From a virus, in the UHGV virus genome UHGV-0144131: DNA of 39,499 nucleotides. The stretch is one strand, 5' to 3'. Both the position numbers and the translations under genes were made by a program. The notes under the pieces were generated by a model. It did not search any database and was not told where the DNA came from. It was given only the letters and a program-made list of their open reading frames with translations. This document shows positions 3,550-34,947 of this stretch, piece by piece; position 1 is the stretch's first letter, and each line of letters begins with the position of its first letter.

Positions 3550-4170
3550 ATGGATATTTGGGAAAAAAGTAAAATTATTATATTTTTGCTTTTCGTTATT
3601 CCTGGTTTTATAAGTATGAAAGTTTATAGTGTTATTCATCCTAATACCGCTTTTGATACTTCTAAAGCGATTGTGGAAATTGTTTCTTATAGCTGTATAA
3701 ATTACGCAGTATGGTTTGCTCCTATATATTTTATAGAATCTGAGGGTGTATATCTCAAACATCCTGTTCTTTATTGTGCTTTATACTTGGTGATTTTATT
3801 CATTAGCCCAATATTGTTAACGATATTTTTCTCTTGGATGCGAACTTGGCGTTGGTTATGTAATTATATGCCACATCCTACCGGAAGAGCTTGGGATTAT
3901 TTCTTTGGGTTAAAAGTCCCCTGTTGGATGATTATTACGCTAAAAAATGGTAAAAAAATAGCAGGCAAGTTTGGGGCTAACTCATTTGCTTCCAGTGCAC
4001 CAGAGCCAGAGCAAATTTATCTTGAGGAACATTGGGTTCTAAACGATGATGGGGGATTTGAACGCCCTCGAGTTTCAACATTAGGAATATTAATTTTAGG
4101 TAACGATATAGAAAATTTAGAGTTTTTCCGTTTTGAACTACCAACATGCAATAATGGAGAAAGCAACTGA
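3550..4170 (+). CDS. AT-rich membrane protein of unknown function (accessory cargo)
   Basis: 206 aa; N-terminal half has hydrophobic helices (IIIFLLFVIPGFISMKVYSVI, LYCALYLVILFISPILLTIFFSW), C-terminal half is soluble. Visibly AT-rich and transcribed opposite to the surrounding operon. RBS AGGGG upstream of ATG. Confidence 0.6.
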   Translation: MDIWEKSKIIIFLLFVIPGFISMKVYSVIHPNTAFDTSKAIVEIVSYSCINYAVWFAPIYFIESEGVYLKHPVLYCALYLVILFISPILLTIFFSWMRTWRWLCNYMPHPTGRAWDYFFGLKVPCWMIITLKNGKKIAGKFGANSFASSAPEPEQIYLEEHWVLNDDGGFERPRVSTLGILILGNDIENLEFFRFELPTCNNGESN

Positions 4171-4871: not shown

Positions 4872-5633
4872 TTAAGATGAAGCGTTCGCTATTTGAGCTT
4901 CATTAAATGTGAAACCGGCCTGTTTAAGGCGCTGGATTAAGCGAGGTACAGTTTCTCGAACATGATCATTAAAGTTGAGATAAAGAATACCCGCAGCATC
5001 AGAAGGCTGTTCAAGGTGTTGCTTCTGCAAGATGACCACGTTACTGCGGCCGAGTGATGATAACAACATCCCCATTTCTAGAACTACATTTTGACGAGCC
5101 CTGGGCAGGGCTGCTTCTTGACCGTCTCTTTTGGAGTATCCCACATCATCGGGAGTGAGAAGAACAATGCCGAAACGAGTCGCTGTCTGCCCTTGACCAA
5201 TTTCACGCTCCAGTTCTTCAATTATCGTAAGTCCAGTACCACCTGTATTCTGCAAAATAAAATGATCAGGTAACCCAAGCTTATGAAGAATGAGCTCAAG
5301 CTGCTCTTTTGCTGCATGGTCGTGACCGTGAACGATGAAAATCTTTTTGGCTGGCTCTTGAACCGGGGCTGGCTGAACTCGTTGAGCTGGCGCGTTACCC
5401 AAGTGTTCATTAATAATGGCTTCAACCTCTGGTTTTGCCGCTTGTGAGCCTTGAATCAAAATCGTTCCGGTGTGGTAAAGCGTTATGATGGCACCATTAC
5501 TTAAACGATAACAATCATGACCGGCTTTGTTTTCTTCTCCGGTAACATCAAATCCGGATTCGACTAAAAATTGACGAAAAGTTTCGACAGGGTGTGGGTA
5601 TTTGAGAGCCATTTCATTGAGATCCTGCATCAT
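4872..5633 (-). CDS. TIR-like nucleotide-binding domain protein with an N-terminal domain of unknown function
   Basis: 253 aa. The C-terminal ~150 aa begins KKIFIVHGHDHAAKEQLELILHKLGL...GIVLLTPDD, matching my recollection of the TIR-like family (COG4271/PF10137-type: hydrophobic strand + HG+D, conserved Gly, acidic patch). Tandem ATGATG start with AGGA RBS. Confidence 0.55.
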   Translation of the reverse strand: MMQDLNEMALKYPHPVETFRQFLVESGFDVTGEENKAGHDCYRLSNGAIITLYHTGTILIQGSQAAKPEVEAIINEHLGNAPAQRVQPAPVQEPAKKIFIVHGHDHAAKEQLELILHKLGLPDHFILQNTGGTGLTIIEELEREIGQGQTATRFGIVLLTPDDVGYSKRDGQEAALPRARQNVVLEMGMLLSSLGRSNVVILQKQHLEQPSDAAGILYLNFNDHVRETVPRLIQRLKQAGFTFNEAQIANASS

Positions 5634-5686: not shown

Positions 5687-7762
5687 CTAATCCTTACAGT
5701 AGTGGTACGCCTCAAAACCGCCAGCGTTCAGTGGGATATCGGGCGCCCATTCGGGGTTAGTGGAGAGAAGCGCGGAAAGCACTTTATCGTTGAAATCTTC
5801 TGTGTCAGGTGCTTCGGTGATCACCTCGTCGTGTACCGTCAACACAATGCTGTAACCGGCATCTTCGATAAGCGGCATGTTTCCGGCCAGAACGTCGCGG
5901 GCGGCCGCCTGGGTGACGTTCTCCACCAGCTTTCCGCCGTAGGTTTTGAGTCGTTGCCATTTACGCGAATAAGAGTTAACACCCATATAGGTGATATTCC
6001 CTTTTTCGATAACCGGAGACGGGTAGCATACAGCGCGTCCGGATGGTAGCTGTATGCGCAGCCACGCGCCATCACGTCGGATTTTAAGATAACCGCAATA
6101 CAATGTTTTTTGCGGTGTGGCGATTGCTGTGCGGACAGTGCGCTCCAGCTCGTACCAGAAATCGCAGGTCGCCGGGTGCGCCCTGCGCCACAGGCGCTTG
6201 AGCGAGTCACATGCGATGAATACACGCTCGGAAAGGCCAAAGGTCGACTTACGTTTAACCGATTCGTCGTACCAGCTTTTCGCCTCGCGGATAACATCGC
6301 GGGGAATGTTTGGCAGTGCGGCGTTCGCCAGCTCGTCGAGATCGAGACCGTAAACCAGAGCAAAAGTGATGAAAGCCGATACACCACCTCCATAACCCAG
6401 ACCGAGTTCCATGACTTTACCGATCTGACGCATGTGTTTATCAACATCATCTGGTGCAATATCGAAAGCTTTTGCATACGCCAGTTTATATAAGTCCGGA
6501 CCCGTTCCGGCGTCGTACTCTCTGAATGCATTCAGTTTCCATTCTTCTCCCGCCAGCCATGCCAGCATACGGCCTTCAATGTTTGACAAGTCACTTACCA
6601 CCAGTTTTTTGCCTGTTGGCGCGATAATGCAGCCACGTAACGCTGAACTGGTTAGTTCCATGATATTGTCAAACAGCAGGTCTGCACATCCGGCTTTCAG
6701 TGCTTCGATGCCTTCGTCTATTTGTTCCTGTTTTAGTGAAGGGCGGGGAAGGTTCTGGGGCTGGAATAGCCGTCCGGCCCAACGACCGGTACGTGACGCC
6801 CCGCAGAACTGTAGCGTACCGCGTAAGCGCCCGTCGTGGCTTACGCCTTTCATCAGTGCCTTGTATTTACTGGTGCTGGTAGTACTGGCTTGCAGGCGGA
6901 TAGCCAGCAGTTCTTTCACGGCAGATGGTAAATCGGGGTCGGCAATACGACGTTCCAGAGTACTGCGTTGCATGTCTGGTAGCTCCACACTGTAGGATTC
7001 AACAATGTGCTTAATCAACGCGTCCCGTTGTGTGGCTGCCTGCACTTCGCCATCAGTCATTTCCTGTGTACGCTTTGCCAGGCGCTTTTGCTCCTGGTCT
7101 ACCGCTTCGATCGCAGCGCGCGCGAGTTGCATGTCCATGCAGACGCCCCGGTCGTTGATCTGCTGATCACGATGCCAGAGCGCCAGCTCTGTCCCCTGAT
7201 AATTCCACTTCGGCAGACGTTTATAGACTTCGCGCATTGCCTCGATATCCAGTCCGGCGTAAGCAACAAAGCGCCGCCATTCTTCCGGGTGGGTTTTGCT
7301 GGTGGCACGGCGCAGTTTGCTGTTTTTCGGGCGGGGCTTACAGAACAGCTGGATCAGCGCTTTACCTTCTTTGTCCTTCGCTTTGTCTTGCGGGACGCCG
7401 AGTATTTCGCAGAGTTCCCCCAGAGACCCCGGGAGACCATGCGCCAGCGCCTGTACCATTGTGTCTCGCCAGCGTTTGGCACTACCTGCAACAACACATT
7501 GGGGAGTGTGCAGTAATGCATGGCGCAACATGGTGCGATCGAAATGGCTGTTGTGTGCATATATTAGTACGCTCTCATCGCTGAGAGCTGTCAGTAGTCG
7601 TGTCGGCAAGTTATAGTCTGTGGTTAAATCGTGTACGCTGACGGGGTCTTCGTCGATTGCCCATGCGAATAACATGATTTCGACTCCTTCTGCATAGACA
7701 TGGGTGCCGTTTTTTATTGGGATTTCGCTGAAAGTTTCGAGGTCTAACCAAAGTTTTTGCAT
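5687..7762 (-). CDS. Family-A DNA polymerase with 3'-5' exonuclease domain
   Basis: N-terminus has exo motifs ([16 protein letters not shown]); central and C-terminal parts have Pol A-like motifs ([15 protein letters not shown]). Start set at the ATG at 7762 ([11 protein letters not shown]); the longest ORF begins with TTG at 7804 inside the 7797..7813 hairpin. Confidence 0.85.
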
Positions 7763-7791
7763 CAAGTAAGGACCCGTTGGATTTAATAAAT

Positions 7792-7818
7792 AAAAAGCCG
7801 CCAAAATGGCGGCTTTTT
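7792..7818. terminator. Rho-independent, bidirectional terminator
   Basis: AAAAAGCCGCC-AAAAT-GGCGGCTTTTT: GC stem flanked by an A-run and a T-run, directly after the SIR2-like gene stop and before the polymerase start. Confidence 0.6.
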
Positions 7819-7838
7819 ATAACCGAAGTTAAGAATGC

Positions 7839-9341
7839 TTAATATGATAAATAATCATACAAGCATAAAAGTCGCCTGTATTGGGTATCAATTTTATGCC
7901 CTGGTTTTGTTAAATAATCTCGTAGTTGTTTCAATGAAATAGTATCGTTTAGTACGCAATACATAATCGTGTTAGCAACTTTATACTCTTTCGTTTCTTT
8001 TAGTATTTCATCAATAGACACAGCCTCACTCTTACATGTTTTAATTCGAGAAAGGTTACCAATGATTTTATCTAGCTGCCGTTTTCTGTATGTCTCGGTA
8101 TTTTCTAGTTCAGGGCAGATAGAACTAAAAGCGTATATTGGAAAGTGTTCGCTATTAGCTATGGTTTGCTTATTCAGTAATGCGATAAGCTGAGAGTTTG
8201 CTTCGTCAACTATTTTAAAATAGTTCTGTATCATTTCAGATTTTGTTTGATAAACATATTGTACGGTTCTTTCTGAACCAACAGCAATGACCATTTCATC
8301 ATTGCGAAGTTCATCTAAATTTTCTGTAATTTTAACCTTTATCTCACCACCACTTTTGATGGTACTCCAAACTTTTTGAACCTTTCTTATGTCCATTGCG
8401 GATACTGGCAAAACTAGTCCAGAGATGGCATCATATACAGCTTTGTAATTGTTTGTTTTTATTTTGTTTATTCTTATGATAGACATGCCTTCTATATCTA
8501 TGTCATGCTCCGTAATTTCAGTTGACATGCTGTCTTTTTCGTATTCAACCAAAAGGAAATTATCTTTTATCCTTTTTGCAAGTTCGGTATTTAAGTCAAC
8601 GTATGAGAATATGGTTTTTAATAAGTACTTAATGTTTTTATCGCTAATACTATACCCTATAAATATGATAGGGTTGTGTATGAATATTGAGAGTAATTGA
8701 GCGCGAATTAACTCATATTTATTGTCGAAGTTTGCGTAGTCTTCACCTGTGATAATTATGTTGTTAGGATCACTAACACAGCCATGTATTTTGTAAACTG
8801 AACCGTATGGGTTACTTAAAAGAATGTTGTTACCAATCAGTGGGTTAAATTCGAAGATATTCTCTACGAGTTGGTCGTAGTTTGTTGTAATGATGGAGCC
8901 TATGTTTTTTCTTGTTTTTATTAAGCTGTTTATTTCCTCCATCATTGACTCTTTTATCTTTAGGTCTTTAAGTATTGAAGTTAAATAAATTTTGAATCGA
9001 CTTAGTTTTTTTCCTTTTTTCATGTGCTCATAGAAAACATCATTGATGTCTTTGAACTTACCGTTACGGTCTTCTGCCAGCTTTTTATTAAAAATATCTT
9101 CAAGTTTTGTAGCTAAGATATCATATCGATAGTCGTCACCTTCTAGGCTTTCAGCTTTCAAATCGTAGTAAAACTCAGCATTACCGGTTAGTTCCATTGC
9201 GACACTCAAAAGAAGACCATCCCAGCTAAATGAGTTTTCTAGATACCGTAGGCTAAATCCTGTTCCAATGAATAGAACAGGGTGGTTTTTATAGTGACTT
9301 ACAAACTCTTGGATTTCCATACCGATTCTCAAAGTTGACAC
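7839..9341 (-). CDS. SIR2-like (SIR2_2 / ThsA-like) protein, candidate NAD+-consuming defence effector
   Basis: 500 aa. N-terminal ~280 aa carries motifs I associate with defence-type sirtuin domains: glycine-rich loop FIGTGFS, TTNYD, KIHG, then IFIGYSISD. C-terminal ~200 aa is unassigned. Strongly AT-rich; GTG start at 9341 with AGAGG RBS; own terminator at 7792..7818. Confidence 0.7.
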   Translation of the reverse strand: MSTLRIGMEIQEFVSHYKNHPVLFIGTGFSLRYLENSFSWDGLLLSVAMELTGNAEFYYDLKAESLEGDDYRYDILATKLEDIFNKKLAEDRNGKFKDINDVFYEHMKKGKKLSRFKIYLTSILKDLKIKESMMEEINSLIKTRKNIGSIITTNYDQLVENIFEFNPLIGNNILLSNPYGSVYKIHGCVSDPNNIIITGEDYANFDNKYELIRAQLLSIFIHNPIIFIGYSISDKNIKYLLKTIFSYVDLNTELAKRIKDNFLLVEYEKDSMSTEITEHDIDIEGMSIIRINKIKTNNYKAVYDAISGLVLPVSAMDIRKVQKVWSTIKSGGEIKVKITENLDELRNDEMVIAVGSERTVQYVYQTKSEMIQNYFKIVDEANSQLIALLNKQTIANSEHFPIYAFSSICPELENTETYRKRQLDKIIGNLSRIKTCKSEAVSIDEILKETKEYKVANTIMYCVLNDTISLKQLRDYLTKPGHKIDTQYRRLLCLYDYLSY

Positions 9342-9431
9342 GTAATACCTCTATAAAAACAAATAGCCGTAAAAATTCCAATAGCTTTTTGGATCTCGCC
9401 CGGCGTGTAACCGGGCGTCTATGAAGAAGGG

Positions 9432-9980
9432 TTAAATCAGTGCTTCAGCATCAGCACCTTCGCTGATATCGTCGAAATCGTCAGCGCTTGCCACTCCGCC
9501 GCCAGCGAATGCATCGCCGTCTCGCAGGAACTGGACTCCGCCGAGTGAGGCATTAATGCGTTTACCGAAATTATTGTCCTGTGCCCAGATATCGATAACG
9601 GCGTTTACATAGCACCCTGCATAGGGACGTCCATCAGCCTGAATTAGTGGCGAACGATCGCGATCAAGAACAGCTGGGCGCGCTTTGTTAGCAGCGTTCA
9701 GGAAGAAATTGCCGGGAAAGCCTTCATACTCTGCTTTTTCATCACCATCATGCAGGCACAGATTGAGTTTTTTCTCCAGCTGGTTATAAATGGACTCCCA
9801 CTTCTCCCCCCATTTTTCCTTCGCTACCTGCTTCATAGCTTTACGGATTTCTTCCAGTTGTGGGTGTTTGGGAGACATTAAAAATACTGCGGAGAAACGC
9901 GGATCGCCTTCGCCGTTTACAGTTTTAGCTTCAAACAGAGACGGGAAGGCCAGACGAACATTGTTCAGCTTCAGTTTCAT
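9432..9980 (-). CDS. ssDNA-binding protein, T7 gp2.5-like (DUF2815-type)
   Basis: 182 aa, N-terminus MKLKLNNVRLAFPSLFEA, acidic C-terminal tail ending DDFDDISEGADAEALI, characteristic of gp2.5-type SSBs. Confidence 0.65.
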   Translation of the reverse strand: MKLKLNNVRLAFPSLFEAKTVNGEGDPRFSAVFLMSPKHPQLEEIRKAMKQVAKEKWGEKWESIYNQLEKKLNLCLHDGDEKAEYEGFPGNFFLNAANKARPAVLDRDRSPLIQADGRPYAGCYVNAVIDIWAQDNNFGKRINASLGGVQFLRDGDAFAGGGVASADDFDDISEGADAEALI

Positions 9981-34416: not shown

Positions 34417-34947
34417 ATGTGCAATCAAAGGAATGAGGCTGTTGGCCTTGAAGTAGATACGATTTTGTCGTACTCGAGAGACAGGTATGAAGAAGTTAAG
34501 ACAACATACAGGCGGTTAGAGGACAAAGCTAATTTTCTTCTTGCTGTGCTTGGTGTTGAGATTTCTGCATTATTAGCCGTTTTTGGGTCCTTTGAGCTGG
34601 GACAACAGTTAAAGACTAGTCTATCCGCAAGATTGTCTCTATTGTGTCTATGTTCATGTTTTGTATGTTTGGTTTTTTGTTTTTATTATTTATGGAAATG
34701 TTGGGAACTTAGAAATATTCCCAAAATGCCTGTGCATCGAACACCTGAACAACATGAATTTCTTCTGAGGGGTAGTAGAGATGACACAGTCAGATTTCAT
34801 TTGATAATGTATGGTAGGGCTATTGATAGAATCGAGAAAATCCATAAAGAAAAATCAGCGTTTGTAAATGAGTTGTTTCGATGGATGGTTATGTCATTTG
34901 TATTTTTTATTATTTCTGTAACGTGCATGTTAATAAGTAAGGTTTGA
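34417..34947 (+). CDS. AT-rich two-helix membrane protein, accessory gene in the tail module
   Basis: 176 aa with hydrophobic helices (FLLAVLGVEISALLAVFG, LSLLCLCSCFVCLVFCFYYLW, WMVMSFVFFIISVTCMLI) and a charged N-terminal helix; visibly lower G+C than the flanking tail genes. Confidence 0.6.
   Translation: MCNQRNEAVGLEVDTILSYSRDRYEEVKTTYRRLEDKANFLLAVLGVEISALLAVFGSFELGQQLKTSLSARLSLLCLCSCFVCLVFCFYYLWKCWELRNIPKMPVHRTPEQHEFLLRGSRDDTVRFHLIMYGRAIDRIEKIHKEKSAFVNELFRWMVMSFVFFIISVTCMLISKV

What the first reader, a model, noticed from the sequence alone, without database searches (positions are those of the whole stretch)
7792..9400. AT-rich SIR2-like gene with its own terminator, inserted between SSB and DNA polymerase
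The 500-aa product has an N-terminal sirtuin-like domain (FIGTGFS, TTNYD, KIHG) and an unassigned C-terminal ~200 aa, the size and layout of Thoeris ThsA (SIR2 plus a ligand-binding domain). It is far more AT-rich than the flanking replication genes, starts at a GTG with a good RBS, and ends in a strong bidirectional terminator (7792..7818). SIR2_2 domains are NAD+-depleting effectors in Thoeris, DSR and SIR2-HerA systems, so this looks like a prophage-borne defence or abortive-infection gene; the C-terminal domain may be an uncharacterised sensor.
Basis: partly seen in the sequence, partly recalled or inferred. Interest (0 to 1): 0.8.

Follow-up and report, generated by a model that had tools for sequence, protein, structure and literature searches.

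The report
Standalone SIR2 defence-candidate cassette in prophage
A self-contained, AT-rich gene cassette in a variable slot of an E. coli prophage encodes a SIR2-type NAD+-cleaving enzyme fused to a helical domain found only in this family; it is very probably an anti-phage suicide switch, belongs to a family already catalogued (PADLOC PDC-S25), and I found no published test of it.

Summary
A 500-aa ORF (7839-9341, minus strand; 33% GC against 51% in its flanks) lies between the Enc34-type SSB and the family A DNA polymerase of an E. coli prophage. It is followed by a strong bidirectional terminator (7792-7818). It has a SIR2_2 domain with intact GxG, Asn and His motifs. Its fold is closest to the filament-forming NADases KomC, ThsA, Avs5 and FAM118B.

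The ThsA analogy fails beyond the SIR2 domain. The C-terminus is not SLOG, Macro, STAND or CARF. It consists of a very conserved, poorly modelled stretch (311-365) and an all-alpha domain (366-500) with a fast-evolving tip. This module occurs only in this family.

No partner gene co-occurs, and the nearby TIR gene is independent. Leader, ORF and terminator move as one unit. The cassette is found in the same slot of diverged phages, in the P2 gpA-gpQ defence hotspot, nested in type I RM operons and next to STAND or MmeI-type genes.

It matches PADLOC candidate PDC-S25 full-length, a class the authors call untested. A 33%-identical relative was not among the systems validated on an eight-phage panel.

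Verdict: a real, selected, standalone SIR2 defence candidate with a novel sensor-like module. It is already catalogued; the mechanism is inferred.

The parts
7839..9341 (-). ORF of the SIR2-family protein (500 aa from GTG 9341; 493 aa if translation starts at ATG 9320 = Met8; stop codon 7839-7841)
   Evidence: identical to RefSeq WP_248698582.1 'SIR2 family protein' in E. coli ECONIH2; full-length PADLOC PDC-S25 hit E=4e-158; phrog_2695 E=1e-154 from residue 8; purifying selection, dN/dS 0.02-0.06 in close pairs
8412..9320 (-). SIR2 (SIR2_2) catalytic domain, aa 8-310. It holds the GxG NAD-binding motif (9252-9272), the catalytic Asn in TTNYD (8874-8888) and the catalytic His in KIHG (8781-8792). 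The His loop (aa 166-188) has low model confidence.
8247..8411 (-). Middle segment, aa 311-365 (LPVSAMDIRKVQ...SGGEIKV...AVGS). It is as conserved as the catalytic core (lower column entropy, lowest dN) but is modelled with pLDDT below 50. Proposed role: regulatory or assembly element.
7842..8246 (-). C-terminal all-alpha domain, aa 366-500, confidently modelled. It contains a fast-evolving segment, aa 411-485 (nt 7887-8111), and a conserved YRxLLCxYD tail. Proposed sensor.
9342..9396 (-). Leader that travels with the gene: about 55-60 nt conserved even in P2-type contexts, including Shine-Dalgarno-like AGAGG (before the GTG) and GAGAA (before Met8). A promoter here is presumed, not shown.
   Evidence: no sigma-70 consensus match
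7792..7818 (.). Bidirectional intrinsic terminator, 20 nt after the stop codon and about 30 nt before the polA ATG (7762). It is the downstream edge of the cassette.
   Evidence: An equivalent hairpin with a different stem sequence follows the stop codon in WIN, L010, L018, L022 and L028 of the 8 loci aligned (GCCGCC/GGCGGC, ACCGCC/GGCGGT, CCGTC/GACGG, GCCAC/GTGGC, GCGCAA/TTGCGC), read by eye from the alignment and not individually folded.
9397..9417 (-). GC-rich hairpin just after the SSB stop codon, with no T-tract. Homology with prophages carrying other cargo resumes here, so it is the upstream junction of the slot and part of the backbone, not of the cassette.

Best explanation
The region is a mobile one-gene cassette (leader, ORF, terminator) sitting in the accessory-gene slot between the SSB and polA genes of a temperate E. 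coli phage. It encodes a standalone anti-phage protein of the candidate family PADLOC PDC-S25.

Proposed mechanism:
(1) The protein is made at a low level in the lysogen. This is inferred.
(2) It rests in an inactive state, with the catalytic His loop not in its active conformation. This is inferred from the low-confidence loop and from the closest structural relatives.
(3) A component of an infecting foreign phage is recognised directly by the family-specific C-terminal part: the fast-evolving all-alpha tip, with the ultra-conserved 311-365 segment relaying the signal. The trigger is most likely a protein, by analogy with DSR2. This is inferred.
(4) Recognition drives higher-order assembly of the SIR2 domains, as in KomC, ThsA, Avs5 and FAM118B. 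This is inferred.
(5) The assembled enzyme hydrolyses NAD+ through the conserved Asn154 and His186. NAD+ is depleted and the infection aborts. The residues are shown; the activity is inferred.

Shown here: the SIR2_2 domain with intact catalytic motifs; a fold in the NADase-effector clade; purifying selection; single-gene architecture with no conserved partner; cassette mobility; and repeated placement in defence or mobile contexts. Not shown: any phage protection, NADase activity, the trigger, the oligomeric state, or expression in the lysogen.
For: - Domain and catalytic residues.
- Family: full-length match to PADLOC PDC-S25. PDCs were derived from genes embedded in BREX, DISARM or type I RM loci.
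- Independent context found here: L120 has the gene between HsdS and HsdR; recurrent neighbours in 80 species genomes are integrases, resolvases, a relaxase, a C5 methylase, type I RM subunits and a PLD-SNF2 helicase. An 83%-identical copy lies between P2-type portal and gpA genes, the defence hotspot defined by Rousset et al. (PMC9122126). Other copies lie next to a STAND NTPase and an MmeI-type RM gene, and next to an RT plus ATPase.
- No conserved partner across 40 phage or genome loci or 80 species genomes.
- Cassette: leader and terminator are conserved across unrelated contexts. The gene is AT-rich relative to its flanks in all 35 viral loci.
- Slot variability: 5 of 159 backbone carriers have it; the others have Nmad5, AntA/B, BRO-N or hypothetical genes.
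- Selection: dN/dS 0.02-0.06 in SIR2 and 0.07-0.23 in aa 411-485. Identity is 27% against 65%.
- The C-terminal module is unique to the family.
- One of five E. coli copies is knocked out by IS1, which is compatible with a fitness cost.
Against: - I found no experimental evidence for this family. The PADLOC authors call the PDCs untested.
- A distant relative (pFR88, single-gene SIR2 from the P4 hotspot; 33% identical over the SIR2 domain; PDC-S25 profile E=4e-85) was cloned by Rousset et al. It is listed only among 'additional tested systems', not among those giving robust protection against eight coliphages.
- No sigma-70-like promoter was detected in the leader, and the gene is co-oriented with the early replication operon. 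Expression in the lysogen is therefore unproven.
- The other occupants of this slot (antirepressors, Nmad5) are phage accessory genes, not known defences, so the slot itself is not diagnostic.
- dN/dS in the variable tip is well below 1, so faster evolution may be relaxed constraint rather than an arms race.
- The two most conserved non-core stretches are the worst-modelled, so structural inference about regulation is weak.
Confidence: 0.6

Rival explanations
1. Thoeris-like two-component system: the TIR protein encoded on the other side of polA (4872-5633) makes a nucleotide signal on infection, and this signal binds the C-terminus of the SIR2 protein and activates it, as ThsB activates ThsA.
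For: SIR2 and TIR genes lie 2.2 kb apart on the same strand in the same operon-like block. The SIR2 domain is ThsA-like by profile (E=3.6e-18) and by fold.
Against: The TIR gene is part of the prophage backbone in relatives that lack the SIR2 gene (IAI1, phage vB_EcoM-606R2). It is absent from several loci with 98-100% identical SIR2 (L016, L017, L030) and from the Klebsiella and all other contexts. The TIR is of the CAP12/Pycsar effector type and matches its own single-gene candidate family, PDC-S35. The SIR2 C-terminus is all-alpha, not SLOG.
Confidence: 0.04
2. A phage-serving function expressed with the early replication genes during this phage's own lytic growth. Possibilities include exclusion of co-infecting phages only during induction, host takeover by remodelling NAD+ metabolism, or a counter-defence. 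In this reading it is not a lysogen-expressed host defence.
For: The gene is co-oriented with, and sits inside, the early/replication operon, and no consensus promoter of its own was found. It is kept in the same slot in 14 of 35 viral contigs, across backbones whose SSB is only 55-59% identical, which suggests a long association with this replication module. Other cargo in the slot are phage accessory genes.
Against: The same cassette, with its own conserved leader and terminator, occurs in P2 hotspots, in type I RM operons, next to STAND or MmeI genes and on non-phage mobile elements in many phyla. None of the 80 species-genome loci has the SSB/PolA neighbours. Depleting NAD+ would harm the phage's own replication. 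Only 5 of 159 backbone carriers need it.
Confidence: 0.12
3. A protein- or nucleic-acid-modifying sirtuin (deacylase or ADP-ribosyltransferase) that consumes NAD+ stoichiometrically to modify a specific target, rather than a bulk NADase. It could still be defensive.
Confidence: 0.1
4. The trigger is a nucleic-acid structure (as reported for DSR1 or short pAgo-SIR2 systems) or a small molecule, rather than a phage protein. The effector logic stays the same but the sensor differs.
For: The 311-365 segment is more conserved than expected for a protein-protein arms-race surface, which suggests an invariant ligand. ≥52% identity across many phyla fits recognition of something universal.
Against: No known nucleic-acid-binding or nucleotide-binding domain was detected. 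The variable helical tip resembles protein-recognition repeats in class only.
Confidence: 0.14

Closest known systems
PADLOC phage defence candidate PDC-S25 (Payne et al., bioRxiv 10.1101/2024.01.29.577857) / PHROG phrog_2695
   Same: Full-length profile match (PDLC04968 E=4e-158, residues 4-500 on profile positions 4-514 of 517; phrog_2695 E=1e-154). Single-gene architecture. Here also found embedded in a type I RM operon.
   Different: Nothing structural: this is a member. The family is only a bioinformatic candidate ('untested'), and its PHROG function is 'unknown'.
Thoeris ThsA (SIR2-SLOG NADase activated by the ThsB-made signal gcADPR)
   Different: There is no SLOG/STALD domain; the C-terminus is all-alpha and unrelated. 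There is no co-occurring TIR (ThsB) gene.
DSR2 (defence-associated sirtuin 2; standalone SIR2 with an alpha-solenoid C-terminal domain that binds phage tail tube protein)
   Same: A single polypeptide with an N-terminal SIR2 and an all-helical C-terminal region, and no partner gene. It gives the top Foldseek hits (E=1.6e-7, SIR2 part only). This is the closest analogy for how the protein may work.
   Different: DSR2 is about 1,000 aa, with a MID domain and a long solenoid (PMC11850899 abstract). Here only about 135 helical residues are present, with no detectable sequence or specific fold similarity. The PADLOC Dsr hit is marginal and covers SIR2 only.
Kongming KomC (SIR2-only NADase, helical filaments, activated through KomA/KomB and dITP)
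   Different: KomC is 264 aa with no C-terminal module and works in a three-gene system. No KomA/B-like neighbours occur here.
Avs5 (SIR2-STAND) and SIR2-HerA (Nezha)
   Different: There is no NTPase domain in this protein and no HerA partner.
pFR88 single-gene SIR2 from the P4 satellite hotspot (Rousset et al. 2022, PMC9122126, Table S2B)
   Same: A standalone SIR2_2 gene in a phage/satellite hotspot. It hits the PDC-S25 profile (E=4e-85) and is 33% identical over aa 20-308.
   Different: The similarity covers only the SIR2 domain (profile positions 10-342), and the stored sequence is truncated at 399 aa. It was not among the systems validated on the eight-phage panel.

Membership tests
Pfam SIR2_2 (PF13289) / defence-type SIR2 NADase domain | Profile HMM match above the gathering threshold | tested here: met
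   80.5 bits against a cutoff of 24.5, E=1.7e-22, aa 149-246
Pfam SIR2_2 (PF13289) / defence-type SIR2 NADase domain | Catalytic Asn and His and the N-terminal GxG NAD-binding motif are conserved | tested here: met
   N154, H186, G26, G28 and S30 are invariant in 42 homologues and align with ThsA TTNYD / YKMHG. That these ThsA residues (N112, H152) are catalytic comes from my own knowledge of the ThsA literature.
Pfam SIR2_2 (PF13289) / defence-type SIR2 NADase domain | NAD+ hydrolase activity | not testable with these tools
   Needs an enzyme assay
PADLOC PDC-S25 | Full-length match to the family HMM, single-gene system | tested here: met
   PDLC04968 E=4.1e-158, 4-500 against 4-514 of 517; PDLC04967 E=3.6e-56; no conserved neighbour
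PADLOC PDC-S25 | Occurs embedded in or next to known defence systems (the criterion that defined PDCs) | tested here: met
   L120: HsdM-HsdS-[SIR2]-HsdR. Also next to a STAND NTPase, an MmeI-type RM gene and a C5 methylase, and in the P2 gpA-gpQ hotspot.
PADLOC PDC-S25 | Confers phage resistance | not testable with these tools
   The authors call the PDCs untested. A distant relative, pFR88, was not validated.
Thoeris ThsA | SIR2 (or other) effector domain homologous to ThsA | tested here: met
Thoeris ThsA | C-terminal SLOG (STALD) signal-binding domain | tested here: not met
Thoeris ThsA | Adjacent, co-occurring ThsB (TIR) gene | tested here: not met
   The TIR gene 2.2 kb away is a backbone gene present without SIR2 and absent from many SIR2 carriers. 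No conserved neighbour.
DSR2 | About 1,000-aa protein: SIR2 + MID + long alpha-solenoid C-terminal domain | tested here: not met
   This protein is 500 aa. Only the SIR2 part aligns (TM-score about 0.5 to SIR2-only chains). The C-terminal module has no relatives outside its own family.
DSR2 | Activated by direct binding of a phage structural protein | not testable with these tools
   Proposed by analogy only
SIR2-HerA / Avs5 / Kongming | Obligate partner (HerA; KomA/KomB) or a fused STAND NTPase | tested here: not met
   No conserved neighbours in 120 loci. No NTPase domain.
Classical sirtuin deacylases (Pfam SIR2, PF02146) | Match to the classical SIR2 profile and a Cys4 zinc-ribbon module | tested here: not met

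The most novel reading that the evidence does not exclude
The ultra-conserved, unmodellable 311-365 segment and the family-specific helical domain together form a new kind of compact one-protein sensor. This sensor recognises a widely conserved infection cue, which would explain ≥52% identity from Enterobacteria to Bacteroidota, Campylobacterota and CPR bacteria. It switches a ThsA/KomC-type SIR2 into an active filament without any second-messenger synthase. In effect it would be a 'signal-free Thoeris effector' whose trigger and gating principle are not those of any characterised SIR2 system.
Probability: 0.2. Interest if true: 0.7.

Novelty: new variant of a known kind. Interest (0 to 1): 0.4.

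Why it matters
SIR2 NADases are one of the most reused effectors of prokaryotic immunity. They have animal relatives (FAM118B and SAMD9 appear among the structural hits). How each variant senses infection is the open question.

This family is compact (about 500 aa) and needs no partner gene. It is unusually well conserved across phyla and carries a sensor-like module seen nowhere else. That makes it a convenient system for finding a new trigger and gating principle.

For E. coli and Klebsiella genomics, the work identifies a concrete hotspot (SSB|PolA of Enc34-type temperate phages) where phage-versus-phage weapons and other accessory genes are exchanged. The practical caveat is that the family is already listed in PADLOC, so the finding is a well-supported candidate for testing rather than a discovery.

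Tried and rejected
- Thoeris pairing with the neighbouring TIR gene: rejected on co-occurrence.
- The C-terminal module as a swappable sensor fused to other effectors: the exhaustive profile search found it only in this architecture.
- Standalone ~135-aa C-terminal proteins (possible decoys): the one I could inspect is the second half of a split gene (344-aa SIR2_2 ORF plus 137-aa ORF, L013). The others were not checked.
- Positive selection on the variable tip: dS is saturated in most pairs. Close pairs give dN/dS of 0.07-0.23, which is elevated but below 1, so the result is inconclusive.
- Own promoter: the consensus scan found none in the leader. My eye-reading of TTGGAA...TATAGA has poor spacing, so I make no claim.
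- Literature: I found no experimental test of PDC-S25. The Sir2 homologue of Vassallo et al. is the two-gene PD-T7-2.
- The AFDB50 fold library was unavailable.
- The automatic terminator scan missed the 7792-7818 hairpin. Direct folding confirmed it.

Full report
**1. The observation**

The window contains a 500-aa ORF on the minus strand at 7839-9341. It starts at GTG, 6 nt after AGAGG. Its GC content is 0.333, against 0.511 for the flanking replication genes and 0.498 for the whole window. Twenty nucleotides after the stop codon lies AAAAAGCCGCC-ATTTT-GGCGGCTTTTT (7792-7818). This folds at about -20 kcal/mol on either strand (z about -6.5; none of 200 shuffles folds as well) and is flanked by A- and T-runs, so it is a bidirectional intrinsic terminator. 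The automatic scan missed it. The neighbours are an Enc34-type ssDNA-binding protein (9432-9980), a DUF2800 PD-(D/E)XK nuclease, a family A DNA polymerase (true start probably ATG 7762) and, beyond the polymerase, a TIR protein.

**2. What the window is, and that the gene is an insertion**

The window is a temperate phage integrated beside yfhL. It is identical in E. coli ECONIH2, where RefSeq annotates the gene as 'SIR2 family protein'. Of 5,426 complete E. coli genomes, 159 carry the polA/SSB backbone at 95-99% identity, but only 5 carry this gene. In the other genomes the same slot holds one of:
- a 209-aa hypothetical gene on the opposite strand (phrog_10579);
- Nmad5;
- a hypothetical gene plus Nmad5;
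- an AntA/B antirepressor;
- a BRO-N protein.

Homology with those relatives resumes exactly at a GC-rich hairpin after the SSB stop codon (9397-9417). The SSB|PolA junction is therefore a cargo slot.

**3. The cassette**

I aligned the two ends of the gene from unrelated contexts: this prophage, Klebsiella, two P2-like phages and more distant phages. About 55-60 nt of leader are conserved. Five of the eight aligned loci (WIN, L010, L018, L022, L028) show a terminator hairpin just after the stop codon whose stem sequence differs but still pairs; I read these by eye from the alignment and did not fold them individually. Leader, ORF and terminator therefore move as one unit.

In the SSB|PolA lineage a 7-codon N-terminal extension (MSTLRIG) is kept, with synonymous changes at Thr3. 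Its start codon is ATG in relatives and GTG here. In the P2-context copies that position is an in-frame stop. Most distant homologues and the PHROG profile begin at Met8. Met8 (ATG 9320, preceded by GAGAA) is thus the family-wide start, and the GTG start is plausible only for this lineage. No sigma-70 consensus promoter was detected in the leader, so expression in the lysogen is unproven.

**4. The protein**

Pfam SIR2_2 matches aa 149-246 (E=1.7e-22). G26, G28, S30, N154 and H186 are invariant in 42 homologues and align with the ThsA motifs. An AlphaFold model built on that alignment (pTM 0.76) shows three parts:
- a SIR2 Rossmann fold up to about aa 310;
- a stretch, aa 311-365, with pLDDT below 50;
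- a confident all-alpha domain, aa 366-500.

**5. The C-terminal half**

An exhaustive profile search of 1.84 billion representative proteins found the module in only 189 proteins. All full-length hits are 497-542 aa, with the module at about 290-500. A recurring set of ~135-aa hits starts at the conserved Met-Met at residues 370-371. The one I could inspect is the second half of a split gene.

Conservation is uneven:

| Region (aa) | Median identity to the query |
|---|---|
| SIR2 domain | 65% |
| 311-365 | 65% |
| 366-500 | 43% |
| 411-485 | 27% |

. In close pairs, dN/dS is 0.02-0.06 in SIR2 and 0.07-0.23 in 411-485, and dN is lowest in 311-365. The gene is therefore under purifying selection. 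Its C-terminal tip evolves faster, but positive selection is not demonstrated.

**6. No partner gene**

I clustered the flanking ORFs of 40 phage or genome loci and, separately, of 80 species-representative genomes. No neighbour accompanies the gene outside the Enc34-type replication module. The TIR gene downstream of polA is of the CAP12/Pycsar TIR type and matches its own PADLOC single-gene candidate, PDC-S35. It is present in relatives without SIR2. It is absent from several loci with 98-100% identical SIR2 and from the Klebsiella prophage remnant that carries a 71%-identical copy in the same slot. The Thoeris-like reading is rejected.

**7. Context elsewhere**

- IMG/VR holds 35 viral contigs with the family. 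Fourteen have it in the same SSB|PolA slot, even where the SSB is only 55-59% identical. The gene is AT-poorer... i.e. lower in GC than its flanks in every locus.
- An 83%-identical copy lies between a P2-type portal gene and gpA. This is the P2 defence hotspot of Rousset et al. (PMC9122126).
- Other copies lie next to a STAND NTPase, an MmeI-type RM gene, and a reverse transcriptase plus ATPase.
- Among species-representative genomes, 141 of about 185,600 carry it. It stays ≥52% identical over its full length from Enterobacteria to Bacillota, Bacteroidota, Campylobacterota, Deferribacterota, Thermotogota and a CPR genome.
- Recurrent neighbours there are integrases, resolvases, a relaxase, a C5 methylase, type I RM subunits and a PLD-SNF2 helicase. 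In L120 the gene is nested between HsdS and HsdR.

**8. What is already known**

The protein matches PADLOC PDC-S25 over its full length (E=4e-158) and PHROG 2695, 'unknown function'. PDC systems are 145 candidates derived from genes embedded in BREX, DISARM or type I RM loci, and the authors explicitly call them untested. The only text mention of PDC-S25 I found is a strain inventory.

Rousset et al. cloned a single-gene SIR2 from the P4 hotspot (pFR88). It hits the PDC-S25 profile (E=4e-85) and is 33% identical to this protein across the SIR2 domain. It appears only in the table of additional tested systems, not among those that protected against the eight-phage panel. The Sir2 homologue in Vassallo et al. 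is part of the two-gene PD-T7-2 system.

**9. Interpretation**

The best-supported reading is a standalone SIR2 NADase defence protein carried as a mobile cassette. By analogy with DSR2, the family-specific C-terminal part would sense an infection cue directly. By analogy with its closest structural relatives, activation would involve higher-order assembly and NAD+ depletion. Only the domain identity, catalytic residues, selection, architecture, mobility and context are shown here. Activity, trigger, oligomeric state and expression are inferred.

Rival readings are given with their evidence in the rival-explanations section. They are an early-lytic, phage-serving role; a target-modifying sirtuin; and a nucleic-acid or small-molecule trigger. 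One of the five E. coli copies is disrupted by IS1 after about codon 52 (target duplication at window 9179-9187). This is an anecdote compatible with a fitness cost.

**10. Verdict**

The ThsA-layout analogy is wrong beyond the SIR2 domain, and the family is already catalogued as an untested candidate. It is a new variant of a known kind (SIR2-effector single-protein defence) with a sensor-like module that has no characterised relative. Interest is moderate.

Noticed in passing
window 4872-5633 (-): A 253-aa protein with a CAP12/Pycsar-type TIR domain (Pfam E=6e-31). It matches PADLOC candidate PDC-S35 full-length (E=2e-109) and phrog_16442. It is part of the prophage backbone in most relatives and is independent of the SIR2 gene, so it is a second untested defence candidate in the same replication operon.
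   Followed up: partly
window 3550-4170 (+): A DUF6338 protein in an AT-rich pocket (GC about 0.33), on the opposite strand between the helicase and the VRR-NUC gene. A different 798-bp ORF occupies this place in E. coli IAI1, so this is a second variable cargo slot. It has no PADLOC hit.
   Followed up: partly
window 9179-9187; locus L049 (E. coli 23CRST009, NZ_AP045766.1): In one of the five E. coli genomes that carry the gene, an IS1 element is inserted inside the ORF after about codon 52 (9-bp target duplication). This separates the GxG NAD-binding motif from the rest of the protein, so the gene is probably inactivated there.
   Followed up: yes
window 7763-9431 slot; loci L001, L003 and hits H36-H91: The SSB|PolA slot of this prophage family carries at least six alternative cargos in E. 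coli: a 209-aa hypothetical on the opposite strand (phrog_10579, no PADLOC hit), Nmad5, a hypothetical plus Nmad5, AntA/B antirepressor, BRO-N, and SIR2. None of the non-SIR2 cargos was characterised here.
   Followed up: partly
window 7762-7818: The strong terminator sits only about 30 nt upstream of the polA start codon, inside what looks like one early operon. How polA is transcribed past it (read-through, antitermination by the phage's Q-like protein, or a separate promoter) is unexplained.
   Followed up: no
window 8247-8411 (aa 311-365) and 8778-8846 (aa 166-188): The two most conserved stretches outside the Rossmann core are the two regions AlphaFold models worst (pLDDT below 50), although the alignment is deep enough to model the variable C-terminal domain at pLDDT about 90. 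This suggests conformational switching or an oligomer-dependent structure.
   Followed up: partly
loci L009-L012 (Klebsiella): A 71%-identical copy sits in the same SSB|PolA slot of a decayed prophage remnant between a PBP5-like gene and sbcB. It is very widespread in Klebsiella (the index lists the exact protein in 668 blocks of the collection). The defence candidate seems to be retained while the structural genes decay.
   Followed up: partly
window 34417-34947 (+): Another AT-rich pocket (GC 0.36) within the late/tail region contains a 176-aa ORF. It was not examined further.
   Followed up: no
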